Shown here: positions 18,415-53,100 of the stretch, one piece after another
Layout: each line of letters starts with the position of its first letter
Position numbering within the stretch: position 1 is the stretch's first letter
Source of the DNA: an uncultured Bacteroidota bacterium
Lineage (GTDB): Bacteria > Bacteroidota > Bacteroidia > UBA4408
Direction: 5' to 3'
Length of the DNA: 64,000 bases
Assembly (NCBI GenBank): GCA_903831265.1
Contig: CAIKXD010000068.1
Span: 5,198 to 69,197, forward strand
Notes under the pieces: generated by a model
The model's database searches: none
Told to the model about the DNA's origin: nothing
What the model saw: only the letters and a program-made list of their open reading frames with translations
Translations under genes and position numbers: made by a program

Positions 18415-18434
18415 TAATACCAATTGTATTTATT

Positions 18435-18445
18435 AAATAGTCCAA
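18435..18445. repeat. inverted copy (aaatagtccaa) of the 'ttggactattt' core of the 60-nt repeat
   Basis: Reverse complement of 18506-18516; also matches window 11-20. Confidence 0.5.
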
Positions 18446-18494
18446 AGCTATTTAATAAATTTACAATGTATAATGCAGATATAACAAAATATAG

Positions 18495-18558
18495 TTCAAT
18501 AAAATTGGACTATTTATTTTGTATAATCGGTATAAAACAATAATGGCAATATCTTTCC
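18495..18558. repeat. second copy of the ~60-nt repeat seen at window 1-58
   Basis: Shares the 'ttcaat..attggactatt..atcggtataaaacaa' blocks. Confidence 0.6.
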
Positions 18559-18741
18559 TTATGCTTTTTATGAACTATTTACATCTAGGAAATAGTGTCT
18601 AACAGGCCTATTTGAAAATTGTTAGCGCATGAGTTGTTGGTTGTTGCAATCTGCAATTACTTTCAGATTCCTGAAATCTTTTAACTTTCAACGCTAAGGT
18701 GACAAAATCTATTTGTGTGTTGGTATTCATAGTTTTTACAT

Positions 18742-19980
18742 TTAAGACAAGAAGTGATAGATAAAATAAATTTCAATTGATGTTTTCAATTGAAATTTAT
18801 TTTTTGCCGAACTAATACTCTTGAAGCTCTTTATCAATAATTTATAAGACTTCTTAAACTCACCGGCCTTTCCAATTGGATTGATCAACAAAAAAAATAA
18901 AATTGGTATTAACCCTAATGTAATCACTTTTAAACCTAAATAGTCCTTGGAAAAAACACCAAGCTCAAGACCCAAATACAGAGTTGAAAAACCAGTTAAA
19001 AAACCAATTACTATTGAGATAAATGCTGATGTCATGATTTGGAATTCAGATATTTTTTGAATTGCAGATATCTGTTGCTCAATCAAACTGAATTCATGTG
19101 ATGAATTTTGAATACCTAGTTTTTTGGTGAGGTAAATAAACTGAGTGCCTTCTGGCTCATTAAATATGTTTTTAATACTTTTAATATATTTTATATCAAT
19201 CAGACTTGTATTTTTTAATCCCTCGTTATAAAACAATAGGTTTTCAATTACTTGTTTGTAAATTAAATTTAATAACTGATTGTAGTTGTGAATGGCTTGA
19301 TCTGCCTCTTCCTTTATCCTTGGATCAACATTATTTGTTAGTGAATTCAGCCTCTTGGCGAAATTCATGGAAAATAGGATATTAACAATGGCAACACCAA
19401 ATACTCCCTTGGATGTTTCTTCTAGAATTTCAGAATTTTGCATAAAATTGGTACTTGCAATTGCACCGGCAACCACACCTCCATATCCTAAAATTTTTCC
19501 GGCATCCGACTTGCTATTGAATCCGGATAATGCTCCAACAAGAATGCCTAAATTAGACCATCCAGCTTTTGTTTTTTCAGCAAGTGCCTGTTTTCTGAGT
19601 TGTTTTGCAGTCTCAATGCGCATTTGAGCAAGTTCAACTGTTCTGTTAAGCATGGTTGTAATAAAAGCAATTTCAATTAAATTATATTCATCAACCGTTA
19701 GGGTTGACTTTTTCGTAAATTCCTCAAAAGACATTATTGAAGACTTTAACAGATGCAATTTATCATCGTAATCAAAGAGATAAGACTGTGATATTGCTTT
19801 GAATGCCCAACCTGCCGAATTATTAAAATCCTTTTTTATTAGTTCTTCACTCAAATCTATCGATTTGCTGAAATTGCCCGATGTGAGCTCAGTTGCACAG
19901 AGTTCCGTAGTGGATCGGTTATCTTTATTTGTATGATTAATTAAAATGTCCTTTAGTAGTCTGTAAGTATTTGTGCTCAT
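18742..19980 (-). CDS. hypothetical membrane protein (Gly-rich central segment, C-terminal TM helices)
   Basis: 412 aa. No recognisable family. 'GILVGALSGF...GYGGVVAGAIAS' glycine-zipper-like segment. Three C-terminal hydrophobic helices. A 17-bp perfect hairpin with a T-run (18763-18803) overlaps the last codons. Confidence 0.4.
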   Translation of the reverse strand: MSTNTYRLLKDILINHTNKDNRSTTELCATELTSGNFSKSIDLSEELIKKDFNNSAGWAFKAISQSYLFDYDDKLHLLKSSIMSFEEFTKKSTLTVDEYNLIEIAFITTMLNRTVELAQMRIETAKQLRKQALAEKTKAGWSNLGILVGALSGFNSKSDAGKILGYGGVVAGAIASTNFMQNSEILEETSKGVFGVAIVNILFSMNFAKRLNSLTNNVDPRIKEEADQAIHNYNQLLNLIYKQVIENLLFYNEGLKNTSLIDIKYIKSIKNIFNEPEGTQFIYLTKKLGIQNSSHEFSLIEQQISAIQKISEFQIMTSAFISIVIGFLTGFSTLYLGLELGVFSKDYLGLKVITLGLIPILFFLLINPIGKAGEFKKSYKLLIKSFKSISSAKNKFQLKTSIEIYFIYHFLS

Positions 19981-20049
19981 TTGAAATTTGTGAATATTAT
20001 ACCGCTGTTTTAGATTGTTTTAGGTCCTGTATATTGCCAAGCGAAGATA

Positions 20050-20634
20050 TTATTTATAATTTTTGTGTATGAAAGGTGTGTCGTAAATAACGCACAACAT
20101 GTCACAATCGCGAGTTACTTCGTTCCCAATTTCACAATCACATGACTTTCTCATGTATCCCGCGATACCCCGAGCAAATGAATGTTCGTTGAAATAAAAG
20201 ATAGGATTTTCTCTCCAACTACCATCACTGTCCTGAGTACTATCCTCCATAACCACAATCATTGGTTTAGCAAAGACTTCTTCGTAGTGTGTTTTATAAT
20301 CATTCTCATACGAGCCTTCCTGTTTTTTTTTAATTTTTTTCTTTGTGATGTAATAGTTCCTTACATCTCCTTTCTTTTTGGCTTGCTCATGGGTATGATC
20401 ATCTGTAAAATTTTGTCCCATATAATGCTCGCCTTTTAAAAGTGTAAAAGTACCATCTTCATAAAATTTAAAATTCTCTGTTAGTCGGTCTCCGCGCTGT
20501 CCACCATTTGCACTGCCTTCCCATTCGCCTTGTATGAGTATTTCAATAGGATTATCTGCAAATTTAGTTTCACCTTTACAACCCGTCAATAAAGTGAATG
20601 AGACGAGCACAAGTATTTTTTGAAAATAGCTCAT
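20050..20634 (-). CDS. hypothetical lipoprotein (Cys-rich C-terminus)
   Basis: Lipobox 'LLTGC' after a signal peptide when started at the Met at 20634. C-terminal 'CDCEIGNEVTRDCDMLC' cluster. The longest ORF extends to 20700. Confidence 0.45.
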   Translation of the reverse strand: MSYFQKILVLVSFTLLTGCKGETKFADNPIEILIQGEWEGSANGGQRGDRLTENFKFYEDGTFTLLKGEHYMGQNFTDDHTHEQAKKKGDVRNYYITKKKIKKKQEGSYENDYKTHYEEVFAKPMIVVMEDSTQDSDGSWRENPIFYFNEHSFARGIAGYMRKSCDCEIGNEVTRDCDMLCVIYDTPFIHKNYK

Positions 20635-20770
20635 ATCATTCCTAAAGTTGATATTTTTAATGGTTGCGATAAAGCTGCGGTTTGGAATAGTTTTTATCAT
20701 ATTAGAAAAATTGATTGGGGTTAAATATTTAACTAATTCGTGTATTGGTTTTTATATTTGGTAAGATTTT

Positions 20771-21139
20771 TTATTTCTGACAAATTTGAGTGGTAAAATC
20801 ACCATCATTTTCATCGCCGTAGGCAGTAATTGACCCATCCTTTGTGCCGCCATCCCAAATAACTTGCATCAAACTTCTTCTACCTGCAATCACATCAATT
20901 GGAAAATACATATCATGATTTAACTTTTCACGTAAATCAATAATACGCCAAACTCTTTTACTCCACATAACATCAGCTTCTCTCAAATAAGTGTATGGAA
21001 TTACCCTACGCTCAATGGTATGTTCTTTCACATAAACACCATCTAAAATATTAGACTAGGCATTTACATTTGAAGATACAACTGCTAAATTTAAACTAAC
21101 TATAGCAGTTAAAATAGTTTTATTGAACAAGGCTTTCAT
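20771..21139 (-). pseudogene. GldN-like N-terminal fragment interrupted by an in-frame TAG
   Basis: ATG at 21139 encodes a 27-aa signal peptide 'MKALFNKTILTAIVSLNLAVVSSNVNA'. An amber codon (21056-21058) follows. The same frame then continues as '...IPYTYLREADVMWSKRVWRIIDLREKLNHDMYFPID', which resembles the conserved N-terminal block of GldN/PorN. Total length ~123 codons against ~300 for GldN. Confidence 0.4.
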
Positions 21140-21160
21140 ATCAAGTAGTTTTGATTTGTA

Positions 21161-22393
21161 TTAACCGTTAACTTTTAGTGTAAGTGTAGGTAAAGTTCTA
21201 ACTGTACCGTTAGGCATTCTCACTTTAATGTCTTCAAAAATTACCCTTCCGTTGTTTTTAACCTTTTGAAGCAAAGTAGTTATTTCTCCAGTAAAATTAT
21301 TGCCAGTGGCAGAAGCTGTTTTAAATTCGCCACCAACGTTTAATGCAACTGTGTAAGAAGCAACAGTAACTCTTAAATCAAAATCAAAGTCCTTCATTAC
21401 TGCTGCAACACCACCAGATGCCAATAGCAAGGCTTTAGTAATTACACCTGATTCTTTACCCCCAACTTTAGCAATTGGATCTGGCAATGGTCTCACACGA
21501 AATTGATAGTTATTTTCTATTTTTTTTAATTCTTGTCCTTGCCTTACAGTCAGGGAGATTGAAAAATCAGTCATATTCTCGGGCGTAACATCATACATAT
21601 CTTTATTGTAACACCTAGATATTTTTCCTCCAGTTACATAAGGAATAAGCTGTTCTGACTTGTAGCCCGGGACTGATATTTTTATAGGATTTGGAATGCC
21701 AAAATATAAAACATTGTTTCGCTCAGTGGCGATTAGTATATCAGGTTTAAATGTGAAAGAACTGATTTTCTTCCAGGATTTACTGCCTTTTGTGGTATAT
21801 AGCCCATCCCTCTTTAAGATTTGTTCTCCAATTTGATCAACAAAACCAGGAACTGAAATGGATATTTTATTTTCCTGCATCATCCATTTCCCTGGTATAT
21901 GTACGATAGTTGAATTAATGGATGTAACGAGCACCAAGTCACCATTACCAAAGAATCTCAACTGATAGTTTACTATCAAATTATCATAGATTCCAGGTAA
22001 ATCCTCCTCGCTCATAGGTTTCAGATTAATCAAGTTATCAATTTTATTTTCTAAATCTTCAGTAATTGCATTTAGATTCAATGATTGATTCCTTGCCTCT
22101 TCCGGGGAGCTCTCCGTATAAGAATGATAATCATTTAAAAGATTTTTTAAGTGTATTATCAAGGTAGTGTACGGATCGATTCCAGTTGGTTTTTTTGTAG
22201 TAATTTCCTTGTATTGAACTTCTAATGTTGTATACCTATTTTCTAATTTTTTAAGCTGTAAATTTGTTTTATCATTCACGCTGTTACATCCGATTGCCAA
22301 GAAGATAAGACAAAATATTAAGCTACTTTTGATTAATGTGCTAATTAAGGGTGTTTTAAATTTAAATTTCTTTGACATAAATTTCTTTTTCAT
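21161..22393 (-). CDS. GldM/PorM-like protein, lipoprotein variant (C-terminal GldM domains)
   Basis: The 'NVLYFGIPNPIKISVPG', 'FRVRPLPDPIAKV' and 'IKVRMPNGTVRTLPTLTLKV' blocks resemble the repeated Ig-like C-terminal domains of GldM. The N-terminus is a lipoprotein-type signal ('FLAIGC') rather than the GldM TM anchor. 410 aa against ~510. Confidence 0.45.
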   Translation of the reverse strand: MKKKFMSKKFKFKTPLISTLIKSSLIFCLIFLAIGCNSVNDKTNLQLKKLENRYTTLEVQYKEITTKKPTGIDPYTTLIIHLKNLLNDYHSYTESSPEEARNQSLNLNAITEDLENKIDNLINLKPMSEEDLPGIYDNLIVNYQLRFFGNGDLVLVTSINSTIVHIPGKWMMQENKISISVPGFVDQIGEQILKRDGLYTTKGSKSWKKISSFTFKPDILIATERNNVLYFGIPNPIKISVPGYKSEQLIPYVTGGKISRCYNKDMYDVTPENMTDFSISLTVRQGQELKKIENNYQFRVRPLPDPIAKVGGKESGVITKALLLASGGVAAVMKDFDFDLRVTVASYTVALNVGGEFKTASATGNNFTGEITTLLQKVKNNGRVIFEDIKVRMPNGTVRTLPTLTLKVNG

Positions 22394-22935
22394 TTTATTT
22401 TGGCTGTTTTAATGATACTCTTAAGCTTGTCATTCATTTTTACCAGTTGGCCATAACGGTAATTTAATTTCAAATTGAATGTTTCATCATACAGGGTAAT
22501 ATTCTCAGGTTTGAACCGCACATTAACGATATTTGAAAAATTTTTCACCAAAGCTTCTGCTTCTTTAATTTGTTTCGGATTTAAACCTTGTTTCATTGTT
22601 GACCAAAGTCCCTTATCAAAATAATGTGTTTTTAATCCTGCCGCGGCAGCATCTAAGTGTTCGACTTTGGCTAAACGAGCTTTCAGTGTCCATTGTGTTT
22701 TACTTAAATCGTAGCTTAATAAGTATATATTTTGGAATTCGCCATAGGGTAAATCTTGAAACCCTTGTATAAATCCATACCTGTAAATGGCATCACTAAA
22801 AATTGGATTAAACAGCCATTCTTCCCAACCAAAACCATGCAACCCCTCGAATGTTTTCTTGTCCGTTGATTTACCTTGCGCTCCCGATGGCTTTTGATAA
22901 CCAAGTGTATTGTATGTAATTCTGGCGTAGTGCAT
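22390..22935 (-). CDS. hypothetical cytoplasmic protein, translationally coupled to the GldM-like gene
   Basis: 181 aa. Its stop TGA overlaps the downstream ATG (ATGA). No TM segment and no recognised family. Confidence 0.45.
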   Translation of the reverse strand: MHYARITYNTLGYQKPSGAQGKSTDKKTFEGLHGFGWEEWLFNPIFSDAIYRYGFIQGFQDLPYGEFQNIYLLSYDLSKTQWTLKARLAKVEHLDAAAAGLKTHYFDKGLWSTMKQGLNPKQIKEAEALVKNFSNIVNVRFKPENITLYDETFNLKLNYRYGQLVKMNDKLKSIIKTAKIK

Positions 22936-23094
22936 TTAAAAATGGATCCTATCAATAAAATAGATTAATTAAGTTTGAGCATATATAATTTCCGCAGGAC
23001 TTAGGTATTTGCTCATAAATTGTAACATATGAATAATTTTCCGATATTTTATCTTTAATAATGTTACAAAGCTAACTCTGAAGTTGTTGAATAA

Positions 23095-23125
23095 TTTGTA
23101 TTTTTGTTCTAAATTAGTACCTTTG
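23095..23125 (+). promoter_or_regulatory. candidate Bacteroidota promoter TTTG-N19-TACCTTTG upstream of the XRE gene
   Basis: TAnnTTTG box at 23118-23125, with a TTG 19 nt upstream. ATG at 23150. Confidence 0.45.
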
Positions 23126-23149
23126 AAATTGTATCATAGAACCTAAATA

Positions 23150-23542
23150 ATGGAAAAAAATTTTAAATCGGTCGCAGATCGCGTAAAAGAAATGAGGCTA
23201 AAAAAAAATTACTCTCAAGATTATATTGCGAAAAAATTAGGTATCAGCCAAAAGGCATACTCAAAAATTGAGAACAACGAAACTCGACTCAATGTAGAAG
23301 CATTACTCTCTATTTCTGAGATATTAGAAATTCCAGTTAATAATTTTTTTGGCGATTCTAAAGCGCCAATGCTTAACGACTTTAGTTCTGGCAGAGACGG
23401 TGATAATGTAATTTATAAGACGATAAATGACAATGCGAAAGAGGATTTATATCAGCAACTTCTAAAAGCTAAGGAAGAAATTATACAAGCTAAAAATAAT
23501 GAAATTGAAACTTTAAAAAAGCAAATAGAAAAAGCAGAATAA
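23150..23542 (+). CDS. XRE-family helix-turn-helix transcriptional regulator with C-terminal coiled coil
   Basis: 'YSQDYIAKKLGISQKAYSKIENNE' is a canonical Cro/C1 HTH. The C-terminal 40 aa are heptad-like. Confidence 0.8.
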   Translation: MEKNFKSVADRVKEMRLKKNYSQDYIAKKLGISQKAYSKIENNETRLNVEALLSISEILEIPVNNFFGDSKAPMLNDFSSGRDGDNVIYKTINDNAKEDLYQQLLKAKEEIIQAKNNEIETLKKQIEKAE

Positions 23543-23550
23543 GTAAGATT

Positions 23551-23578
23551 AGTAACACGTTTACGACTTTATTTTACT
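23551..23578. repeat. right copy of the 28-bp direct repeat (agtaAcacgtttacgacttTattttac)
   Basis: 26/28 identical to 18381-18408. Lies 9 nt after the XRE stop. Confidence 0.75.
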
Positions 23579-26629: not shown

Positions 26630-27649
26630 ATGAAATACAAGCTTAAAATTTATTTATTGTTAACAGTGCTTTGTTATGTTTCGTGCGATAACCCTACCCA
26701 ACATAAAGTGCCTGAAGAGATTATTGAACAAGCTTTTAAGATAAAAGTAAATAGGTTTGACCAAGACCTATTTGCCAATCAAAAAGATTCAATACAATTT
26801 AGTACAACAAATTTGGCACTTAAGTATCCCGATTTTTTTTACTTGTTTACTAAAAATATTCTCAACATTGGCGATTCATCAAATCCGCAAATGCCGGTCC
26901 TTTTAAAAGGTTTTTTAAAGGATCAGTATATCAATGAAATGTATAATGAGGTGCAAAAACAATATAGCGATGTGAACGCTTACAATTCGGATTTTACAAA
27001 CGCATTTAAGGGCTATCATTACTTTTTCCCGCAGGCTAAGATTCCGGCAATTACTTATTTTGTTTCGGGATACAATTTTGCCACAGTTACCACGCAAAAT
27101 ACCTTAGCTATTGGCTTAGAAATGTATTTGGGTAGCAATTATCAACCTTATTCATTATTAAAAATACCCGTTTACAAACAAAAATTAATGCGTAAAGAGT
27201 ATCTTGTTGTTGATGCTATGCAGGCCTGGATAACCACCGAATTTGAGAAGGAGGAAGATTACAACACACTTTTAAATCAAATGTTATACAAAGGCAAGGT
27301 GCTTTATATGCTCCAAAAAATATTACCTGAGACAATTGATTCGGTAATATTTGGTTATAGTGAGGAACAACTTAAATGGTGTCTGAGCAATGAATCTAAA
27401 ATTTGGTCGCATTTTATTGAGAAAAAACTACTATTTGCAGCCTTAAGAGGCGATAGTTTTAAGTATATTAATGAAGGCCCATTTACAGCTGGTTTTCCGC
27501 GAGAATCTCCAGGTAAAATAGGAGTGTGGTTAGGTTACCAAATTATTAAAAAGTATATTGAACAACAACCTAAAATTACTTTAAAGCAGCTTTTTGAAAA
27601 TCGTAATGCTCAACAAATTCTAATGCAATCAAAATATAAACCTAAATAA
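26630..27649 (+). CDS. gldB: gliding motility lipoprotein GldB
   Basis: 339-aa lipoprotein with lipobox 'YVSC'. Immediately followed by a small GldC-like gene; the gldB-gldC arrangement is as in Flavobacterium. Assignment rests on synteny and family recollection. Confidence 0.6.
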   Translation: MKYKLKIYLLLTVLCYVSCDNPTQHKVPEEIIEQAFKIKVNRFDQDLFANQKDSIQFSTTNLALKYPDFFYLFTKNILNIGDSSNPQMPVLLKGFLKDQYINEMYNEVQKQYSDVNAYNSDFTNAFKGYHYFFPQAKIPAITYFVSGYNFATVTTQNTLAIGLEMYLGSNYQPYSLLKIPVYKQKLMRKEYLVVDAMQAWITTEFEKEEDYNTLLNQMLYKGKVLYMLQKILPETIDSVIFGYSEEQLKWCLSNESKIWSHFIEKKLLFAALRGDSFKYINEGPFTAGFPRESPGKIGVWLGYQIIKKYIEQQPKITLKQLFENRNAQQILMQSKYKPK

Positions 27650-37343: not shown

Positions 37344-40300
37344 TTAGCTAATATAGTTACTTGAATTAGCAAGTTTATTTTTAAGTTCTTCAATACGTTT
37401 AAGCTTGTTCGGCTGTCTTCTTCGTTTATTAGTTTCTGTAAAATATTGGTGTTTCTCAAGAAATGGGATTTGCATCTCATCCCATTGTTTGTCTGTTTGT
37501 ATTTTGCCAAATGAAATTAGTTCCTTTTTTAAAGATGCTGAAATTTCATAAAAATCTTCACGCCCTAAATAATCCAAATCAGCATCACACATAATCATTT
37601 CTAGAAGCGTTTTTGGATTTTGGGGTATTTCAGTAGCCATAATAATGGCATCAATAATATCGATTTGACGCTCAGTATAGCCATATTTTGGTAGCACCTC
37701 ACGTGCGAATGTAACTCCAATTTTTTCATTCTTTACATACTCTTGTACAAAACCTGCATCATGAAAAAGTGCAGCAGTTTTTAATAAAAATAAATCTTCA
37801 CCATCAACACCTTCTTCTCTTGCAATTTCTTCGGCAGAGTTTGTTACATCAATTGTGTGATGAATGCCATGATAATAAAGCCCTTCAGGTAGTCTTTCTG
37901 CCAGTAGTTTTAGAATACGTGCTTCAGATTTTTTGAAACTGAATTTATCAAGTAGCAATTGAGAAAATTTCTCGTTAAATAATTCGTTTGGAGTCATGCC
38001 TTCTGTATCTGATGAAAGTTCAGGTCTAATTTTTTCCACAAAATACATCTCAATATCGCCTTTGTTTTTAGCTGCAATTTTTCCTCTGTAAGTGCAAACA
38101 AAAAAATCTTTAATGTACTCATATGTAGCCTTTGTTATATTAACCTTGCCCGCCTCTCCACTACTTTCAGTTCTGCTCGCGGTATTTACAGTGTCGCCCC
38201 AAATATCAAAAGCAAATTTAGTTTTTCCTATGACACCTGCAATAATTTCTCCTGTATTTATTCCTAATCTTAATTTCCACTCATACTTTTTTCCTTCAAT
38301 TTCTATAAACGCACCACGCATAAAATGCTGTATTTCTAGCGCTGCTAATACAGATTCTATAGGGTTACTTTTATTTCTAATAGGAATTCCACCCGCGCAC
38401 ATATATGAATCTCCAATTGTTTTGATTCTTTCCATGTTGTATTTTCCTACAATTTCATCAAATTTACTAAAGTACTTGTCTAATTCATCAATTAATTGTT
38501 GTGGTCGTAACTTCTCAGCAATCTTGGTAAATCCTTGAAAATCGGTAAACATAACTGTACACATACTATAATTCCTTGGTCTAGAAAAGCCTTTGTTTAT
38601 AAGTTCCTCAGCAGTTTCTTTCGGTAAAATACTGTGTACTAAACTTTCTGTTTTCTTTTTTTGCTCTTCAATAATCGACTTCTGCGCCTCAATTTCTTCT
38701 TTTTGTTTCATTACGGTGGCTGTGCGTTCTCTTATTTGATTTTCGAGAAATCTTTTCTGTTTAACCACCCTATTTAAGCGCTGCCTATTGTAAAAATATA
38801 TTATAGCAGCTAACATAATAACAACCAATAATCTAAACCACCATGTTTTCCAAAAGGGTGGTGTTATCCTAATTTGAATAGTAGCGGCTGTCTTGCTCCA
38901 AACGCCATCTGAATTAGAACCCAAAACTTTAAATACATATTCACCTGGCTCCAAATTAGTGTAATTTGCTTGGTTTTGCGTACCAACATAATTCCAATCT
39001 TCATCTAAACCTTCCATCATATATTTAAACTCATTATTCTCGGGTGATGAAAAATGAAGCGCAGAAAAATCAAATGAAAAGAAATTTTGCTTGTAGGAAA
39101 GTACAATTTCTTCGGCATAGGTTATGCTTTTTTTTAGCACCTTACTTTTGTTTGCCTCAACCGGTTGATTAAATATCATTAAGGCTGTAATAACAATTCT
39201 TGGTGCAATTGTATCATGCAGTATTTGGTTTGGAAAAAATGCGTTAAATCCTTCTACACCACCAAAAAACAATTCCCCTTTTTCTGATTTAAAAGCTGCT
39301 CCACTATTAAATTCATTGCTTTGTAAACCGTCATTCTCATAATAGTTAGCGATGGTTGAATCGTTTAACCTAAGTTTAATTAAACCATTATTGGAGCTAC
39401 ACCATAATACATTCGAATTTTCTTTTAAAATACTGTAAATGGTGCTATTTTGGATGCCTTCTAGGTAGGCACATCGGTTTACTTTTCCTGATGAAATATC
39501 TAAATTATTTAAACCACCACCATAAGTTCCAAGCCACAAGCTGCCTTCATTTATTTGCGATATACTTAAAATATTATTGTTGCTCAATGTGTTTTCAACA
39601 TCTTGATTAGAAAGGTATTTTACAAAATAAATTTTATCGGTTATTCCTTTTGTTTCTTTTATATAGTCCACCCTGTTTAATCCTCCACCATTGGTGCCAA
39701 CCCATATATTTCCATTCAAATCTTCAAAAATGGCTCTAATATCATTGTTTGATATAGATTGCTTAGAATTACTATTGTTAACATAATGTTCAATAGTTCG
39801 GTTTTTTAAGAATATTTTATAGAGCCCTTCTTTTGTCCCAATCCATAAATTATTTTTAGAGTCGAGCGTAAGGCACAACATAAATTTTTCTCTCAAATAA
39901 TCAATTTCCTTTTTATTTAGTTTAAACGGAATAATTTTATGATTAACGATATTGTATTCAAATAATCCTCGCTCGCAACCTACCAATAAGATATTTTCGG
40001 ATAAACGCTGTATACAAGTTACCGCTGTTGAAACCGACTTTATAGTTGATGGCATTTCGATGGTAAAACTAACACCAGTTTCTCTGTCAAATACAGTTAA
40101 GCCACCATCGCTTCCAATGTAAGATATGTTACTTGTAACATCGTCATAAATACTCCAAACATTGTTGGTAGCGTTGGTTAAATTAAAATTTATGCGTGGT
40201 GTAAAAAGCTTAAATTTATTTTGAATTCTATCAAATTTATTAATGCCAGATTCTGTTCCAACCCACATCGTGCCTGTCTTGTCTTCATAAATGCAATTTA

Positions 40301-41264
40301 CTTTATTGCCATTAATTCCTTTTCTGTTTTCAGGTGAATACTGAAAACGAGCAAAATTATTTGGCTTGTTGTTGTACTTATTAAGTCCTCCAAAAGTGGC
40401 CAACCATATTGTTCCCGAATAATCTCTGTAAATATCTTTTACAACATTGTTACTTAAACTATTTGGTTTAAGTGCATCATTTTGTACTACCTCTATACTC
40501 CCTGTTTTTTTGTTTAAAATGGTTAAGCCATTTTCTGTGCCTAACCAAAGCTGTGTGTTATCAAATTCAAAAATAGAAAATACACAATTGCTATTAAGGT
40601 TCCATTGTCGGTTTTTTTTAGATAACCTTGAATCCTTGTCATTAATATCATAAGCAATAATCCCTAAATTATTAGTTCCAATCCAAAGCGTTTTTTCTTG
40701 ATCAATAAATAAAGATTGTACAATGCTATTTTGTAAATTTTGTTGAAGAGTAATTGCTTTTAATTTGGATTTTTTTTCTCCAATATGCATTTCATACAAA
40801 CCATTATTAGCAGTAGCTGCATAAAGTATATTGTTGTGAATTAATAATGCGGTAAACTTTTGTTTAAGCTCGCTTCCTTTATACTGTAATTGATATAATG
40901 TAAATTTTTCCGCTATTGGGTCAAACATATTCAATCCATTGTCAGTAGCAATCCATAAATTGCCTCTTTCATCGATTTTAATATCGTGAATAAAATTACT
41001 TGAAATGGAGTTGCTTTCTTTGGGATAATTCTTGTAGACGTTAAAATGATAGCCATCATATTTATTTAAGCCATCTTGGGTGCCAAACCACATAAAACCA
41101 TGCTTGTCCTGCACAACGCAGTTTACATAGCTCTGAGATAATCCATCGCGAATTCCTAAATGATCGAAGCTAAAATTATTTTTTTGAGCATATAAAAATG
41201 AATGTGCAACAAAAAATGCAAAAAGCAATACACACCTAACAATATTTAATTTTATTTGATTCAA
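37344..41264 (-). CDS. multidomain sensor: periplasmic two-component-regulator propeller repeats + Y_Y_Y, single TM, class III adenylate/guanylate cyclase, C-terminal HD phosphohydrolase domain
   Basis: Signal peptide, then about 14 'NxIxxIxxDxxGxLWIGTxxGLNxxD'-type Reg_prop repeats. Y_Y_Y region. TM 'WWFRLLVVIMLAAIIYF'. Coiled coil. Cyclase motifs 'VMFTDFQGFT', 'KTIGDSYM', 'GINTGEIIAGVIG', 'DIWGDTVNTASR'. HD motifs 'HGIHHTIDV' and 'LFHDAGF'. Confidence 0.8.
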   Translation of the reverse strand: MNQIKLNIVRCVLLFAFFVAHSFLYAQKNNFSFDHLGIRDGLSQSYVNCVVQDKHGFMWFGTQDGLNKYDGYHFNVYKNYPKESNSISSNFIHDIKIDERGNLWIATDNGLNMFDPIAEKFTLYQLQYKGSELKQKFTALLIHNNILYAATANNGLYEMHIGEKKSKLKAITLQQNLQNSIVQSLFIDQEKTLWIGTNNLGIIAYDINDKDSRLSKKNRQWNLNSNCVFSIFEFDNTQLWLGTENGLTILNKKTGSIEVVQNDALKPNSLSNNVVKDIYRDYSGTIWLATFGGLNKYNNKPNNFARFQYSPENRKGINGNKVNCIYEDKTGTMWVGTESGINKFDRIQNKFKLFTPRINFNLTNATNNVWSIYDDVTSNISYIGSDGGLTVFDRETGVSFTIEMPSTIKSVSTAVTCIQRLSENILLVGCERGLFEYNIVNHKIIPFKLNKKEIDYLREKFMLCLTLDSKNNLWIGTKEGLYKIFLKNRTIEHYVNNSNSKQSISNNDIRAIFEDLNGNIWVGTNGGGLNRVDYIKETKGITDKIYFVKYLSNQDVENTLSNNNILSISQINEGSLWLGTYGGGLNNLDISSGKVNRCAYLEGIQNSTIYSILKENSNVLWCSSNNGLIKLRLNDSTIANYYENDGLQSNEFNSGAAFKSEKGELFFGGVEGFNAFFPNQILHDTIAPRIVITALMIFNQPVEANKSKVLKKSITYAEEIVLSYKQNFFSFDFSALHFSSPENNEFKYMMEGLDEDWNYVGTQNQANYTNLEPGEYVFKVLGSNSDGVWSKTAATIQIRITPPFWKTWWFRLLVVIMLAAIIYFYNRQRLNRVVKQKRFLENQIRERTATVMKQKEEIEAQKSIIEEQKKKTESLVHSILPKETAEELINKGFSRPRNYSMCTVMFTDFQGFTKIAEKLRPQQLIDELDKYFSKFDEIVGKYNMERIKTIGDSYMCAGGIPIRNKSNPIESVLAALEIQHFMRGAFIEIEGKKYEWKLRLGINTGEIIAGVIGKTKFAFDIWGDTVNTASRTESSGEAGKVNITKATYEYIKDFFVCTYRGKIAAKNKGDIEMYFVEKIRPELSSDTEGMTPNELFNEKFSQLLLDKFSFKKSEARILKLLAERLPEGLYYHGIHHTIDVTNSAEEIAREEGVDGEDLFLLKTAALFHDAGFVQEYVKNEKIGVTFAREVLPKYGYTERQIDIIDAIIMATEIPQNPKTLLEMIMCDADLDYLGREDFYEISASLKKELISFGKIQTDKQWDEMQIPFLEKHQYFTETNKRRRQPNKLKRIEELKNKLANSSNYIS

Positions 41265-47106: not shown

Positions 47107-50100
47107 TTAATCTCTAGGAGTTAAAATCACTTTTATTGTTTTATTCAAGTACTCATCACTAATACTTAAATAATAAACACCAGTGACAACTTCGTCAAAT
47201 GCTATAAATTGCGTGTTCCCTTGCTTACTTGTTGAAATCTTTTTGCTGTACACAAGTTTACCTGTAACATCACATAAACTTAAATTAATGAATTCCGACT
47301 TTAATGCAGCTGTTGTTAAATTAATTCCATTTAAATTTGAAGGATTAGGGTAAACGGACCAATTTTCACCTTGGGCTGGTTTTATAAAGTTTACTGCTTT
47401 TACATCACTATATTCAAATTTACCGTCAAAATCTATTTGCATAAGTCTGTAATAAGACAAACCTTCATAAGGTTCAAAATCCATTGCCTTGTAATTTAGT
47501 ATTGTGTTGCTATTTCCAGCCCCATCAATTAAAGCAAAAGAAGCAAAATTAACACCGTCAATAGAGCGCTCAATCTTAAAATAATCATTGTTTGTCTCGC
47601 TCGCTGTTGTCCATGTTAATTCAATATTTTCAAGTACTGGCTGAGCATCAAAATTAATTAAACTAATTGGTAATGGAGAGCCATTCCCATTTGCTGTGAA
47701 ATCACTAAAAGAATATAAACCATTCCAAGTAATTGTCCTAGTGCCTGGATTTACTGATCCTGTGCCCATTTCAAAATTTGAACCAGAACCTAAAGCTGCA
47801 ATCCATCCTTGTGGGTTATGTTTAAATGGCTTTAAATTAGCAGTTATTGGTGCTGTGCCTTCATCTGCTGCAGCCCACTTATAGGTAACTCCATACCCTA
47901 TTTGAGTAGTAGGAAAATTACTTGGCTCTACTTGCCAGTAGCGCGATAAATAATTAGTAGATGTTCCCATACTTGGGTGAACCGATGGAATTACATTAAC
48001 ACTCACTTGGGAAGTAGCGCTCATTGGACCTTCATACAGCGATAAAGTCATTGGTGTATAATTAATTGCATCTCCAACAGGATAATTATAACTTGTGTTT
48101 GCTGTGGTTGTATATCTCACCAATTTTGCTGCGGCCAATCCCGAAATAAAATATTCATTGGCAGAACCCCCAGCTAATGATCCATTAACACCTGTAGTTC
48201 CAATAGTAAAAACATTACCATTCAAATCAACCTTGCCACTAATAAGGCCAACAGAATTTAATGCATTTACATTTCCATTTAGTATAACATTTCCTGTAAC
48301 AGGACTAAAATCTAAATCGTAAAATGTTTCTAAAGTTACACCAGCATTTATAGTTATTGATTGATCACCTATAATTTGCTTATCGAAAACTACTTTTTTA
48401 CTGTTATGAGTAAACGCACTAGATGCCCCCGTTCTTGTCCAATTGCCTCCTATCGAAAATACTCCTGTGTAGGCTGGGCTTAGCGTAAAGGTTCCATTTG
48501 TAATGGTAAGGTTTCCTCTCAAGGCCCTTGTGTTTTGCATCTGCAAATCAGTGCCAATGTCTTTTACTTCCACATTCCACGGGATACCCGGATTGCCTGA
48601 TCCAATTGCACCTGTAGCCCATGTTTTATCATTAACGCCTACCTGATAATCAACAGTATTTGCAAATCGCAATAGTGAATTAATTCCGTAATAGCATGGG
48701 TTAAGTGTTTGACCTACCGAGCCAGCTAACATTACCTGCAAAACGCCATTAATAGTGGTTGGATTTCCTGAACCAAAATCAACAGCACCATCGCCAATCC
48801 GAACCAACACGTTACTATCAAAGTTCAATAAAGTACCACCAAAAGAACTCACTGTCTTGGTAAAAAGTAAAGGTGAGTTTCCGCCTTGGCCAGTAATATC
48901 AAAAGTACCTCCCAAAGAGCCAACAATCGACCTTGTTCCACCTCCACTTATTGTTATGCTTCCTGCAAAAGATGGCGATGTTGCATTTCCTCTATCAGTA
49001 AATGTAAAAGTTGCTAAATCCAAATCACCACCACTCAAAATTAAATCTCTATTAATTGTTTTATTTTGATTAATAGTTAAAGTACCTAGTGTTATTTCAA
49101 GATCTCTTACTTTACTTAAATCTTGTATAAACTCTACTCCACTTGTCATAGTTGCATCGTAACGCAAATCATAGCTATTACCTGCACCAATAGTTGGCGA
49201 TGCGCTCATGGTTGCCGTGGCTGAACTTCTGCATATTTGTGATCCATTCGCCATAGTATTCGTAAAGCCATTTAATTCATAGGAGCCATTCGTTAATTTT
49301 AAACGGTTATTAATTGTGGTATTTGTATTGATGCGAACACTTGCTCCTACATTGTCTATGTTTAAATAACCAAAGGCAAATATGTTGTTACTGATGATTT
49401 GCTGCGTTGTCCCATTCATAGTTATCTCTCTTCCATTTTGTGTAAATGTTCCACCTGCATTGCGCGTTAAGTTACCTGCTATTTGTATATCGCCTCCTGC
49501 TGCAATACTCAAATTTAAAGCGCCTGTGCTTACTCCACCTATGCTTACATTGCCTTTTACGATTAAAGGATTTGACATTGCTCCCATGCTCAAGTTGCCG
49601 CCTTGGTTTATGTTTAAATTTCCAGCTATTTGTCGGGTTGCGCTGCCCCCATTGCTTAAATCTAATGTTGTTACAGTTCCATTTTCATCTATATCAACAT
49701 GGTAGGGATAACCGGGTCCGCTTGTTGCGCTCCATTCTAGGCCTCTTCCGTAGTTATTTCCACTAAAATATCTCAAAGTAGAACCTGCGGAATAGCTTGG
49801 TGCATTGCTATTCACAAAGCCGCCCAATGCTAATTCTAAGGTGCCTTTGATGGTACTTATTGAATTGCCAAAATTCATTCCTGCACTTAATGCAACTTTT
49901 ATATGCGGTGCAAACTCCAATGTGCCACCTAAGTTACTTATTACGCTTTTATTCGCTTGTATATTTAACTGCGCTCCGGGCAATGTGCTGATGATACTTC
50001 TTACCCCGCCACTCACTAAAATGCTTCCGCCTGCATTTACTAAATTAAGCTTGTTGCCATTCAAATCTAAAACTCCAATGTTGATTAATTGTAGGGCATT

Positions 50101-53100
50101 ACCTATACTTCCATTAATTGTAATATCGGTAATATCAATAGCATCTAACAATAAACTGCCAGAGGGTTTATCAAGCACCAGGTAATTAAAAGTTTCTGTT
50201 CCTCCACCTGTTACTGTGATGTTTTGGGTGCCCGAACGATTGAAAATGATCGCTTTGCCATTCGGATTAAAAATGCCATTTACACCACTTCTGTCCCAAT
50301 CTCCGTTAATATATAAGTTACCTCCACCCATGTTGAGCGTTCCATTATCGATTCCAATTGAGCCAGATAGACCGCGATCGCTAGCTGGCATATTTAAGGT
50401 TGTGTTGTTACTTATTCTTACATTGTTTGGTACGCCTAAACCTGCGGAGGTACTATTGCCTGTCCATTCCATATTTACTCCATAATTACCACCTGTGTTG
50501 TAACTCAAGGTGGAACTAGCGCCATACGTTGGGGGGGCGCTTAAACTGCTACCACTATTTAAAATCAATTCTCCATTTACGGTAAGTGGGGTGGATATTG
50601 TAGTTAAACCATTTAAATCTGCGTTGTTTATTATTAAAGCATTACCTCCTGCAAAGGTCCCTGCGCCATTAAAAACAATACTGCCCAAACCACTGATGGT
50701 GCTTACTGCTCCGCTGCTATTGGTTAAAGTACCTCCTATGCTATTAAAAATTAGCGATCTTGTTGCATCTATATTTAAGCTACCGCCTGCATTAATTGTA
50801 ACTGAACTTAGGGCATCAGTATTGCCGCCAGTAATTTGAACAGCATGACTTATACAGGCTGAGGAGGCTGCGGGTGGTATACTTCCTCCTGCCCATGTTG
50901 AGGTATTATTCCAAGCTCCAGGAGCTATAGTAGAGATACAATCTAATATGCCATTGATATTACCTATCACAAAAGGGCGGTTGTTTAAACTTCCTGTAAA
51001 AGTTGTACTTGAGCTGCTTAAATAGGGATTGCCTCCCGTTAAGACAGAGGCTCTGGCTTGCCAAAATAATCCAGTATAATCGCCTTGGAAAACACCATTG
51101 GCTCTTATAAAACCTGCTGCTTCTGCGCTCACAGGCCACTGAAAATTGCTAGATAAATTGTTGCCGCCTGCTATACTTTCATTGATGGTCCACTGTAAAT
51201 TAACCATTTGGTTATTGTCGTTTACTAATGGAGCAAAGGCGGGGGCAGTGTTTACTCTAATCATAATATCATCAACTGTGCCTGCTTGTTGCATTGTAAC
51301 AGGTGAATAGGTACTAGCATCTGGCCCTATTGGATAAAGTGTGGCAATATTGTTAAAGTTTCTAATTAATCTTCCGCTGCCATTGGTTACTATGTAATTA
51401 CTGGAGGATGCTCCAGTTAAAGGAGTATTTAAACCATTCATCTTTAAATTAAAGTTGCCCAAGGTTAATCGACCATTGCTAAGCGTTAATTGATTATCTA
51501 TTTCAACATTAACCGTGGTTAAGCTAACACCAGAAGCATTATTAATAGTTAAAAAGTCGAATGGATTTGTTGTTGTGTTTGTACCTCCAATATTCTGATT
51601 GCTAGTTCCATTAAAGGTAACGGATCTTAAATTTGGAAAGAAATTAACCAATGCTGTTCCATTGTTGTTCCAATTGCCTTTCAATTCAATGTCACCTCCA
51701 AAGGCCCCTGAACCTGATAAATTTCCTGATAAATTAATATCGCCATTTACAATCAAAGGAACGGTCATGTTATTTCCTGCAAAATCCATATAAATATTTG
51801 AACCAGCATCAATGGTTAAGTTGCCCGCTGTATTGAAAACGCTGCTGGTATTTACTCCAGCACCAGGATTAAGAGTAGTGTTATTACTAACTTGTACATG
51901 GCCAGGATAACCTCTTCCAGAAGAAGCACTCCATTCTAGGTTTCTGCCGTAAGCGCTTCCTGTAAAATACTGAAGTGTGGAATTAGCATTGTAAATAGGA
52001 GCACTTATATTTACAAATCCACCAGCATTAATTCTCAATGTTCCTCCACTTTGAATGGTGGTTGAATTGATACCAGCTCCAAAGTTAACTCCCCCATTGA
52101 TGGTAACATTATAAGGATTACTTACACCGGTAAAAGTTCCGGATCCAATAAAGTTTAAGGTGCCAGCATTGGTGCCTACAATAAAATTACTTGCTGTAGT
52201 AGCCACAGTAGCACCTACACTAAGATTAATTGTATTTGCGGCTCCCATATTAAATATACCGCTAGTTAAGGTGAGTGCGTTATTGATGGTGAAAGAAGCC
52301 GAGGTATTTGTTAAAGTACCCGACAAATTCATAATTACTTGCTCAGCAGTGCTTATAACAGGCACTGTATTAAAACCAGTATTTTGATTCACTCCATAAA
52401 ACTCATAAATTGAGCCGGTATTGAAATTCCTTGTGCCTGAGGGCGCCATGCCTACTATACCTGAGGCATGAGTGGTTCTGATTAAAGAGCCGGTGTTAGT
52501 TCTGAATTCATCAGCAGAGGCGCCACCATCACTTGTTGTTACTATAAAACCTTGTGCATCAAATGTGGCATTAACACCAACAGCTATATCACCATCGCTA
52601 ACAGAAAAATTAGAAAGTAATAACAAAGATTTACTATCAGCAATCACAAAATCAACATAGAAATTACTACCTCCTGTTTTAGAATAATTTTGAACTCCTG
52701 CACCATTGAAGGAAAAGGTAGGATTTATAGTATTACTTCCGGTTGATGAACACTGTATAAGGCCTCCTGTTGCTGTTAGATTGCCACTTAAATATACAAA
52801 ACCATCTCCTGTTCCAGCTACCGAAGTGTTGAAATCAAAACGACCTGCAGATTGAATCCAGTTTCCAAGTACATAAGTATTATTATTACTTAAATTTCCG
52901 CTATGTTGAGAAAATCTGGCATTGGCGTTGGTTAAATTCAGATTTCCATTGATGTACAAAGTAACACCTCCTAATGTTGTTGTTTGTTCAAACTGACCAC
53001 CGTTGAGCGTTAAATTTCCTGTTATACCATTAGTAATGCCTGCACCTCCCCATGTCCTGCTTGGTGTAAAAAGTCCTGTACCTTCAATAACAAGGTTGTG

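What the first reader, a model, noticed from the sequence alone, without database searches (positions are those of the whole stretch)
20771..22935. Translationally coupled ORF181 - lipoprotein GldM-like - decayed GldN-like operon
The 410-aa product carries blocks that I recognise from the C-terminal Ig-like domains of GldM/PorM: 'NVLYFGIPNPIKISVPG', 'FRVRPLPDPIAKV', and a C-terminal '...VRTLPTLTLKV'. It has a lipoprotein signal in place of the cytoplasmic N-terminus plus TM helix of canonical GldM. It is shorter by about 100 residues and so lacks the part that contacts GldL. The upstream ORF181 stop overlaps its ATG (ATGA), but ORF181 has no TM helices and does not look like GldL. Downstream is a GldN-like N-terminal fragment. 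The arrangement has the order of gldLMN but with substituted or truncated parts, on an islet. It could be a non-canonical periplasmic T9SS/gliding accessory module, a decoy, or a pseudo-operon.
Basis: partly seen in the sequence, partly recalled or inferred. Interest (0 to 1): 0.7.

Follow-up and report, generated by a model that had tools for sequence, protein, structure and literature searches.

The report
Chimeric GldM-tip lipoprotein in variable islet
A strain-specific gene that fuses a small lipoprotein to the last two domains of the gliding/secretion motor protein GldM, followed by a dead piece of gldN, is a recombination patchwork inside a hypervariable genome islet and not a new kind of secretion-system operon.

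Summary
The sequence features are real. ORF181 (22390-22935) overlaps by ATGA a 410-aa ORF (21161-22393) with a lipoprotein signal and significant GldM D3+D4 domains. A gldN 5' fragment follows. The "gldLMN-like operon" reading fails. The 410-aa ORF has three parts: (1) residues 1-~211, a complete small lipoprotein homologous to stand-alone 108-211-aa proteins; (2) a strongly diverged GldM D3 (at most 44% identical to any GldM); (3) D4, which with the stop codon, the 21-bp spacer and gldN codons 1-~118 forms a 700-bp block (20785-21484) 98% identical to the canonical gldMN of another freshwater Bacteroidia lineage. gldN' is dead: CAG>TAG at codon 28, truncation at ~118 of 283 codons, and a microhomology junction onto a scrap of another islet gene. 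A strain 98.8% identical in the flanks has 304 unrelated bp in place of the 2350-bp cassette. At least four alleles occupy this slot in one species. ORF181 is soluble, possibly PUA-like, and unrelated to GldL. Independent assemblies reproduce the cassette. The protein cannot be a motor component. At most it could bind GldN through D4. Interest is modest.

The parts
23150..23542 (+). Xre-type HTH regulator. It is the conserved flank of the islet, and every islet allele breaks at about 23092-23096, ~55 bp upstream of its start codon.
   Evidence: Pfam HTH_3 2.2e-14. It is 94-100% conserved even where the flanks are only 77-87% identical.
22390..22935 (-). ORF181: a soluble 181-aa protein from a very small family, tentatively PUA-like (EVE/ASCH/YTH) in fold. 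It is not GldL.
21161..22393 (-). 410-aa chimeric ORF, ATGA-coupled to ORF181: lipoprotein module + GldM D3 + GldM D4.
22340..22393 (-). First 18 codons (MKKKFMSKKFKFKTPLIS), shared with the 40-aa stub ORF of strain L023. Strain homology ends after codon 18.
   Evidence: blastn of window against L023, plus the L023 sequence.
21761..22339 (-). Remainder of the small-lipoprotein module (residues 19-~211): h-region and lipobox Cys36, a helical stretch, then a small beta module that ends at the W207-x-K209 motif.
   Evidence: Exhaustive search: P0090 (211-aa lipoprotein) E=1.6e-10 over residues 45-210. P0092, P0093 and P0095 are the beta module alone. All of them end 1-3 residues after W-x-K. No similarity to GldM D1/D2 (hhalign probability 10%).
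21485..21745 (-). Diverged GldM D3 domain (residues 217-303).
   Evidence: PF21602 46.8 bits. Only 38-44% identical to any GldM. dN 0.53-0.67 against 0.12-0.17 among canonical GldMs; pN 0.41 is below pS 0.8.
20785..21484 (-). 700-bp patch of canonical gldMN DNA: gldM codons 304-410 (D4), the stop codon, the 21-bp spacer, and gldN codons 1-~118.
   Evidence: 98.0% identical (14 differences) to L003 and to L032-L038, with sharp edges on both sides. dS 0.066 against 1.0 or more to other species. The same block is only 71-81% identical between species of the clade.
20771..21139 (-). gldN pseudogene: intact signal peptide, TAG at codon 28 (21056-21058), and truncation after about codon 118 of 283.
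   Evidence: Translation. CAG in L003 and L032 against TAG here. PF19841 positions 2-61/228; TIGR03523 70.8 bits, below the 85.9 cut-off. tblastn GldN 1-121 at 95.9%.
20749..20782 (-). 34-bp scrap of the 5' end of the 157/162-aa gene found next to the HTH gene in other islet alleles. It is joined to gldN' through an ATGTCAnAAA microhomology.
   Evidence: 88-91% match to L025, L026, L028, L029 and L030. Junction sequences.
20050..20700 (-). Lipoprotein gene of unknown function (216 aa, or 194 aa from the second ATG), the last gene of the strain-specific cassette.
   Evidence: No family hit, and no relation to the N-terminal module of the 410-aa protein.
19990..22339 (.). Strain-specific 2350-bp cassette. 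Strain L023/L024, which is 98.8-99.5% identical in the flanks, has 304 unrelated bp here.
   Evidence: The 304-bp filler has no match elsewhere.
18742..19980 (-). 412-aa membrane protein of unknown function. It is an islet gene shared with alleles L023 (402 aa, 98% identical) and L027 (406 aa).

Best explanation
The locus is an evolutionary mosaic in a hypervariable, strain-specific islet. It is not a T9SS/gliding module. The islet lies between the Xre-HTH gene and the Suc_Fer-like gene.

Shown: the 410-aa ORF is a complete small lipoprotein fused in frame to GldM domains D3-D4. D3 is an old, fast-evolved copy. D4 is new. D4 belongs to a 700-bp patch copied from a canonical gldMN operon.

Inferred: the patch entered through a crossover in the conserved D3-D4 linker (FRVxxLPDPIAKVGGK) on one side. 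On the other side it joined by microhomology onto a scrap of another islet gene. That event dragged in the gldM stop codon, the spacer and the first ~118 codons of gldN, which are non-functional (TAG at codon 28, then truncation).

ORF181 is a soluble, possibly PUA-like protein of the islet and has nothing to do with GldL.

How it works (inferred): the ORF is probably translated through coupling to ORF181, exported, and lipidated at Cys36. That would give a membrane-tethered periplasmic protein that displays a GldM tip. It has no TM helix, D1 or D2, so it cannot pair with GldL or transmit torque. I think it most likely has no dedicated role in secretion or gliding. Its only plausible T9SS-related activity is passive binding of GldN through D4.
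For: Domain content: D3+D4 only, below the GldM equivalog cut-off (81.8 against 180 bits). No full-length relative among 5.8 billion proteins; every GldM hit covers only the C-terminal 47%.

N-terminal module: homologous to stand-alone lipoproteins that end exactly where D3 begins.

Mosaic ages: D3 is at most 44% identical to any GldM, D4 is 98%. The 700-bp block has sharp edges; dS is 0.066 against 1.0 or more; the block is not ultraconserved between species (71-81%).

gldN': nonsense codon and truncation. Right junction: microhomology plus a scrap of orf157.

Strain specificity: L023/L024 lack the cassette at 98.8% flank identity. There are at least four alleles in one species and more in relatives.

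ORF181 homologs sit next to the same HTH gene and ahead of unrelated large secreted proteins. The window has no canonical gldK, gldL, gldM or gldN. Independent assemblies confirm the cassette.
Against: D3 has stayed open and recognisable despite saturated synonymous divergence (pN 0.41 below pS 0.8). A D3-bearing ORF must therefore have been under selection for a long time. The fusion is in frame and falls exactly at a domain boundary. The ORF is intact in every sampled copy, with only single-residue variants. These points suit a functional flexible-genome gene better than pure debris. No expression or binding data exist. The polarity of the window/L023 difference (insertion or deletion) is not resolved.
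Confidence: 0.55

Rival explanations
1. The 410-aa protein is a functional accessory protein: a periplasmic, lipid-anchored GldM tip that binds the GldN/GldK ring. It would act as a competitor, decoy or modulator of the GldLM motor arm. Its D4 would be kept similar to canonical D4 by recombination.
For: PorM D4 alone is sufficient to bind PorN (PMC5790014). The PorM tip is modelled in the cleft between PorN subunits (PMC12635249). D4 here is 98% identical to a canonical D4. D3 shows long-term maintenance as an ORF. The fusion is clean and in frame at a domain boundary. The ORF is intact in several assemblies and is translationally coupled. Stand-alone signal-peptide + D3-D4 proteins exist elsewhere (P0035).
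Against: The architecture is a singleton. The gene is absent from strains 98.8% identical. D2, which PorM needs along with D3-D4 to bind PorK and to dimerise, is missing. If the MAG link is right, D4 matches another lineage's GldM and not the host's. The patch is too recent for selection to have acted on it. The co-imported gldN' was left to die.
Confidence: 0.25
2. Same anatomy, different source of the patch. The 700-bp block would be an intragenomic gene-conversion tract copied from the window organism's own canonical gldMN operon, not DNA from another lineage. (This is a sub-question about the source of the patch, not exclusive of the other readings.)
For: Gene conversion between co-resident paralogs is the simplest way to overwrite D4. 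The link between the L003 operon and a different species rests on one MAG bin (GCA_945872355.1: L003 and L025). L003 and L032 operons differ by ~5%, which is similar to the 4-8% between the window and L026-L030.
Against: L025, from the largest contig of the same MAG as L003, is only 77-87% identical to the window in syntenic housekeeping DNA. The species-representative scan found no second L003-type operon that could belong to the window's species. No canonical GldM in the protein collection carries the window's N365/N395 D4 variants. The right end of the block is an illegitimate junction and not the end of a conversion tract.
Confidence: 0.3
3. Assembly artefact: the contig is a chimera that joins an islet gene to reads from a canonical gldMN operon.
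For: The block is a near-exact repeat of an operon common in the same kinds of samples. Two short contigs end inside it (L001, L047).
Against: Both junctions recur in independent assemblies from different studies (L047; the 2918-bp contig of GCA_041445565.1 with identical gene spacing). A double chimeric join without shared k-mers at the right end is implausible. The block carries 8 private differences, including the TAG.
Confidence: 0.02
4. A non-canonical gldLMN-type operon in which ORF181 replaces GldL as the partner of a lipoprotein GldM.
For: Gene order and the ATGA coupling.
Against: ORF181 has no TM helix and no GldL_N similarity. Its homologs precede unrelated secreted proteins. The GldM-like protein lacks the TM helix and D1 that contact GldL. 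gldN' is dead.
Confidence: 0.02

Closest known systems
GldM/PorM, the periplasmic arm of the T9SS/gliding GldLM motor (PDB 6EY4, 6EY5, 6EY6, 7CMG, 6YS8; TIGR03517)
   Same: Residues 217-410 are bona fide D3 and D4 domains. This is supported by Pfam, by sequence matches to the solved chains at E~1e-11, by a fold match to PorM 315-516, and by D4 being 98% identical to a canonical GldM.
   Different: There is no cytoplasmic tail, TM helix, D1 or D2. An unrelated lipoprotein takes their place. The score is below the equivalog cut-off. No gldK or gldL lies upstream. The gene is strain-specific and its architecture is a singleton.
GldN/PorN, the T9SS ring subunit (PF19841, TIGR03523)
   Same: The signal peptide and first ~118 codons are 96% identical in protein to a canonical GldN.
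   Different: There is an in-frame TAG at codon 28, and about 165 of 283 codons are missing. It is a pseudogene.
Stand-alone secreted GldM D3-D4 proteins (P0035, 226 aa, next to a GldM_4th+TonB_C protein); seen in the databases, not found in the held literature
   Same: Both are exported proteins that consist of GldM D3-D4 without the motor part.
   Different: P0035 has a plain signal peptide and no lipoprotein module. It is only 34% (D3) and 62% (D4) identical, so it is not the source of this gene.
Small lipocalin-like lipoproteins and beta-module proteins (P0090, P0092, P0093, P0095); uncharacterised
   Same: Residues 1-~211 match P0090 end to end (E=1.6e-10), and 14 positions are invariant across the beta module.
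   Different: Those proteins stop 1-3 residues after the W-x-K motif. Here the reading frame continues into GldM D3.
Replacement-type flexible genomic islands of aquatic bacteria, and homology-facilitated illegitimate recombination (both from my own knowledge of the literature, not checked here)
   Same: Fixed flanks, many unrelated alleles within one species, cargo rich in secreted and surface proteins, and one homologous plus one microhomology junction.
   Different: No integrase, transposase or terminal repeats were found at the cassette.
PUA-like modified-base reader domains (EVE, ASCH, YTH, McrB-NTD), for ORF181
   Different: There is no sequence-profile hit. Foldseek is not significant (E=0.6). 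The region of residues 8-36 is modelled poorly.

Membership tests
GldM/PorM (T9SS motor protein) | N-terminal cytoplasmic tail plus a single TM helix that pairs with GldL | tested here: not met
   The only hydrophobic segment is a signal peptide that ends in the lipobox L-A-I-G-C36.
GldM/PorM (T9SS motor protein) | Helical D1 domain (PF12081 GldM_1st) and D2 domain (PF21601 GldM_2nd) | tested here: not met
   No Pfam hit at E up to 1. hhalign against a GldM profile gives probability 10%. Residues 1-~211 belong to another family.
GldM/PorM (T9SS motor protein) | D3 (PF21602) and D4 (PF12080) domains | tested here: met
   46.8 and 63.5 bits, above the cut-offs. Sequence matches in the PDB. Fold match to 6EY6, E=1.9e-17.
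GldM/PorM (T9SS motor protein) | Full-length equivalog score (TIGR03517, cut-off 180 bits) | tested here: not met
   81.8 bits, covering profile positions 303-519 only.
GldM/PorM (T9SS motor protein) | Encoded in a gldK-gldL-gldM-gldN operon | tested here: not met
   The window has no gldK or gldL (tblastn). The upstream gene is ORF181.
GldN/PorN | Complete ~280-aa periplasmic protein that reaches the family cut-off | tested here: not met
   TIGR03523 scores 70.8 bits, below 85.9. Only about 118 codons are present, and codon 28 is TAG.
GldL/PorL (for ORF181) | Two TM helices plus the GldL_N domain | tested here: not met
   No Pfam hit. The maximum 19-residue Kyte-Doolittle hydropathy is 0.5.
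Bacterial lipoprotein (signal peptidase II substrate) | Positively charged n-region, uncharged h-region, and a lipobox [LVI..][AST..][GAS]-C | tested here: met
   Read directly from the sequence: K-rich residues 2-22, h-region 23-35, A-I-G-C36. No dedicated predictor was available.
P0090-type small lipoproteins (uncharacterised) | Lipobox, helical stretch, and a ~85-aa beta module ending in W-x-K | tested here: met
   E=1.6e-10 against 1.8 billion representatives. 14 columns are invariant.
PUA-like fold (EVE/ASCH/YTH), for ORF181 | A PUA-like beta-barrel with an aromatic cage for a modified base | tested here: inconclusive

The most novel reading that the evidence does not exclude
The chimeric lipoprotein is a natural, islet-encoded modulator of the T9SS/gliding machine. 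It would be a membrane-tethered GldM tip that occupies GldN sites on the outer-membrane ring and so tunes or blocks secretion and gliding in the strains that carry it. Its D4 would be kept matched to canonical GldM by recombination. More broadly, HTH-ORF181-X would be a hypervariable locus in which a PUA-like protein is coupled to swappable cell-envelope proteins.
Probability: 0.15. Interest if true: 0.65.

Novelty: new variant of a known kind. Interest (0 to 1): 0.33.

Why it matters
The finding shows that a GldM-plus-GldN hit pair in an annotation can be a recombination scar and not a second T9SS module. It also documents, base by base, how a flexible islet builds a new open reading frame: a whole small lipoprotein fused to two captured motor domains, with one homologous and one microhomology junction. 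If the protein does bind GldN, it would be a ready-made natural probe or inhibitor of the contact between the motor tip and the ring. That contact is currently known only from two-hybrid data and low-confidence modelling. As it stands, the case is of modest interest to T9SS specialists and of some interest for gene birth and for the microdiversity of freshwater Bacteroidota.

Tried and rejected
- **D1/D2 remnant in the N-terminus:** rejected (hhalign probability 10%). The only echo is the short motif NKISISVPGF, which resembles the D3 motif NPIKISVPGY (blastp E=0.004 in a two-sequence search). That is too weak to call an internal repeat.
- **TPR/CHAT hits P0091 and P0094** from the exhaustive search: judged spurious repeat matches.
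- **PADLOC and PHROGs** on ORF181, the 410-aa protein, the 216-aa lipoprotein and the 412-aa protein: nothing significant. Only the HTH protein hits generic regulators.
- **Mobile-element signatures** around the cassette: none. Promoter and terminator scans are at background level.
- **Calibrating relatedness** with the window's 874-aa ORF against L003's 877-aa ORF: these are unrelated genes (AlaRS against a ClpB-like protein).
- **AF2 with a D3-D4-only alignment:** I used A2 instead and ignored the low-confidence N-terminus.
- **afdb50 fold library:** unavailable.
- **Window's NadE look-up:** not on record, so the window's own assembly and its canonical gldKLMN could not be retrieved.
- **Metagenome scan** for a canonical gldN carrying the window-specific GGC variant: 0 hits, not even the window itself, so it is uninformative.
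- **First 412-against-402-aa codon comparison:** misaligned. Redone by blastp: 98% identical over 399 residues, with different C-terminal ends.
- **Lipo216 against the N-terminal module:** unrelated.
- **First sandbox runs:** the fetched loci were not yet visible to the scripts.
Full report
**1. Observation.**
The minus strand carries ORF181 (22390-22935), a 410-aa ORF (21161-22393) and an 86-aa ORF (20771-21031). The TGA of ORF181 overlaps the ATG of the 410-aa ORF as ATGA.

Pfam finds GldM_3rd (residues 220-301, 46.8 bits) and GldM_4th (304-408, 63.5 bits) in the 410-aa protein, and nothing for D1 or D2. NCBIfam's GldM equivalog scores 81.8 bits against a cut-off of 180. The 86-aa ORF matches GldN positions 2-61 of 228.

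Sequence search against solved structures matches residues 211-409 to PorM (6EY5, 6EY6, 7CMG) and GldM (6EY4, 6YS8) at E~1e-11. An AF2 model is confident only for residues ~220-410 (pLDDT 80-96). It superposes on PorM 315-516 (6EY6, E=1.9e-17, TM 0.73 on the target).

The gldN remnant is longer than the 86-aa ORF. It starts at ATG 21139, 21 bp after the gldM-like stop, and encodes a normal signal peptide. It then hits an in-frame TAG at codon 28 and continues in the same frame.

**2. The 410-aa ORF has three parts of different origin and age.**
Among 5.8 billion proteins, the only full-length relatives are near-identical copies from the same population. All other hits are canonical ~555-aa GldMs that cover only the C-terminal 47%.

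- **(a) Residues 1-~211.** An exhaustive HMMER search with residues 37-216 found a 211-aa lipoprotein, P0090 (E=1.6e-10, covering residues 45-210). It also found three 108-154-aa proteins that consist of the C-terminal beta module alone. All four end 1-3 residues after a conserved W-x-K motif (W207 and K209 here), and 14 columns are invariant. Profile comparison with GldM shows no D1/D2 similarity. This part is therefore a complete small lipoprotein whose stop codon has been replaced by a read-through into D3.
- **(b) D3 (217-303).** It is only 38-44% identical to any GldM. dN is 0.53-0.67 against 0.12-0.17 between canonical GldMs of the clade. Synonymous sites are saturated, with pN 0.41 below pS 0.8.
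- **(c) D4 (304-410).** It is 98% identical to the GldMs P0002-P0004.

At DNA level, window 20785-21484 is 98.0% identical (14 differences) to the canonical gldMN of MAG contig CAMBZU010000025 (L003). This 700-bp block holds gldM codons 304-410, the stop codon, the 21-bp spacer and gldN codons 1-~118. Identity collapses to ~45% immediately upstream and to nothing downstream. One of the 14 differences is CAG>TAG at 21058.

A second sub-lineage of the same operon type (L032-L039, ~95% identical to L003) is equally close to the window. Eight differences, including the TAG, are private to the window. The differences are mostly synonymous (dS 0.066, dN 0.008 in D4). They therefore mostly arose in functional operons before the copy was made.

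**3. Junctions.**
The left edge lies in the DNA that encodes the D3-D4 linker FRVxxLPDPIAKVGGK. This is the stretch where BLAST alignments to all species of the clade begin. That fits a crossover between a pre-existing diverged D3-D4 gene and canonical gldM DNA (inference).

At the right edge, canonical gldN reads ...CAAATGTCAAAAAC. The window switches there to a 34-bp scrap (20749-20782). The scrap is 88-91% identical to the first codons of a 157/162-aa gene that lies next to the HTH gene in other islet alleles and starts ...ATGTCAGAAATAA. The junction is therefore a microhomology join onto debris of another islet gene. No insertion-sequence-like repeats flank the cassette.

**4. Source of the patch.**
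L025 comes from the largest contig of the same MAG as L003 (GCA_945872355.1) and carries the syntenic TatC...HTH...NadE-GldB locus. It is only 77-87% identical to the window there. The block itself is only 71-81% identical between L003 and the other species of the clade, so it is not ultraconserved.

The species-representative scan found no second L003-type operon that could belong to the window's species. The patch therefore most likely came from an L003/L032-type lineage and not from the host's own operon. I put this at about 70:30. It rests on one MAG bin, and I could not retrieve the host's own gldKLMN.

**5. Strain specificity and the islet.**
Contigs L023 and L024 are 98.8-99.5% identical to the window on both sides. 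They replace window 19990-22339 (2350 bp) with 304 unrelated bp. That 2350-bp segment holds the rest of the 410-aa gene, gldN', the scrap and a 216-aa lipoprotein gene. L023 keeps the first 18 codons (MKKKFMSKKFKFKTPLIS) as a 40-aa stub that is still ATGA-coupled to ORF181.

Other contigs of the same species (98-98.7% identical on the HTH side) carry further alleles. L042 (the same contig as L031) has a 47%-identical ORF181 homolog followed by a signal-peptide-bearing protein of at least 615 aa. L044 has yet another ORF181 allele. More distant relatives (92-96% identical) have either three unrelated small genes or only the 406-aa membrane protein. Every allele breaks at window ~23092-23096, 55 bp upstream of the HTH start codon.

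The cassette itself recurs in independent assemblies: L047 at 99.9%, and a 2918-bp contig of GCA_041445565.1 with 410 aa | 86 aa | 194 aa | start of the 412-aa gene at identical spacing. An assembly chimera is therefore excluded.

**6. ORF181.**
It has no profile hit and no hydrophobic segment. Only five clusters of relatives exist. In the two other contexts I could see, a divergent HTH gene lies upstream and a large exported protein follows immediately. One is a 1432-aa PKD_6 + Por_Secre_tail protein (a T9SS cargo), and the other is at least 615 aa with a signal peptide.

Between the window and L023, ORF181 has 0 synonymous and 3 nonsynonymous differences. Neighbouring genes show the usual synonymous excess (NadE 15:4, TatC 6:0).

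**7. Mechanism.**
- **Shown:** the anatomy, the relative ages of the parts, the junctions, the strain specificity, and the dead gldN'.
- **Inferred:** the ORF is translated by coupling, exported, and lipidated at Cys36. This would give a tethered periplasmic protein that ends in GldM D3-D4.

In PorM, the TM helix and D1 couple to PorL. D4 alone binds PorN, while binding PorK needs D2-D3 plus D4, and isolated D4 is monomeric (PMC5790014). The PorM tip is modelled in the cleft between PorN subunits (PMC12635249). The chimera therefore cannot be a motor part. The only T9SS-related activity open to it is occupying GldN.

I rate "mosaic by-product with no dedicated T9SS role" at 0.55 and "functional GldN-binding modulator" at 0.25. 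The main argument for the second reading is D3. Its synonymous sites are saturated, yet it is still an open, Pfam-recognisable domain with pN below pS. That is not expected of neutral debris. In addition, the fusion falls exactly at a domain boundary.

**8. Novelty.**
The held literature describes no lipoprotein or D3-D4-only GldM derivative. The architecture is new but is a singleton, and it sits in a replacement-type flexible islet. I class it as a new variant of a known kind, of modest interest.

Noticed in passing
window 18417-18545; L023 19703-19832: A MITE-like element of ~115-130 bp with 39-nt terminal inverted repeats sits at the far edge of the islet, right after the Suc_Fer-like gene. 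Strain L023 has an extra copy (92% identical) inserted between atpC and alaS, where the window (~11174) has an empty site. I found no other copy in the window and none in L025-L030.
   Followed up: partly
window 18415-23096 and loci L023-L031, L040-L046: The slot between the HTH gene and the Suc_Fer-like gene is a replacement-type hypervariable islet. It has at least four unrelated alleles within one species (98% or more flank identity) and further alleles in relatives. All alleles share the same breakpoint ~55 bp upstream of the HTH start codon.
   Followed up: partly
window 23096-23578 (HTH gene): The HTH gene is 94-96% identical in DNA to relatives whose flanking housekeeping genes are only 77-87% identical. 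Its protein is 100% identical next to a 47%-identical ORF181 allele. This suggests either very strong constraint or exchange of the islet edge between lineages.
   Followed up: no
L002 51-731 (P0035) and a 1650-bp contig of JGI sample 3300059473: Stand-alone 226-aa proteins made of a signal peptide plus GldM D3-D4 exist in other freshwater metagenomes. One lies directly downstream of a 260-aa protein with GldM_4th and TonB_C domains. This looks like an undescribed class of GldM-tip-only periplasmic proteins.
   Followed up: partly
window 22390-22935 and its homologs P0057, P0087-P0089: The ORF181 family has only five clusters. In each context I could see, it lies next to an Xre-HTH gene and just upstream of a tightly coupled gene for an exported protein (a PKD/T9SS-CTD protein, a large secreted protein, or the GldM chimera). 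Between two strains it has 0 synonymous and 3 nonsynonymous differences.
   Followed up: partly
window 18742-19980 against L023 10910-12118: The 412-aa islet membrane protein is 98% identical to the 402-aa version over 399 residues but has a different C-terminal end. This suggests a frameshift or a different junction near the MITE-like element.
   Followed up: no
window 26630-27649 and the following ORF: In strain L023, whose flanks here are 98.8% identical to the window, the orthologous genes are called gldB (GldB_lipo) and gldC-like. They lie just beyond NadE, so the organism has gliding/T9SS genes. The canonical gldKLMN is not in the window.
   Followed up: partly
window 47107-59178 (-) and 37344-41264 (-): Very large ORFs of 4023 aa and 1306 aa, possibly giant surface or secreted proteins. 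I did not examine them.
   Followed up: no
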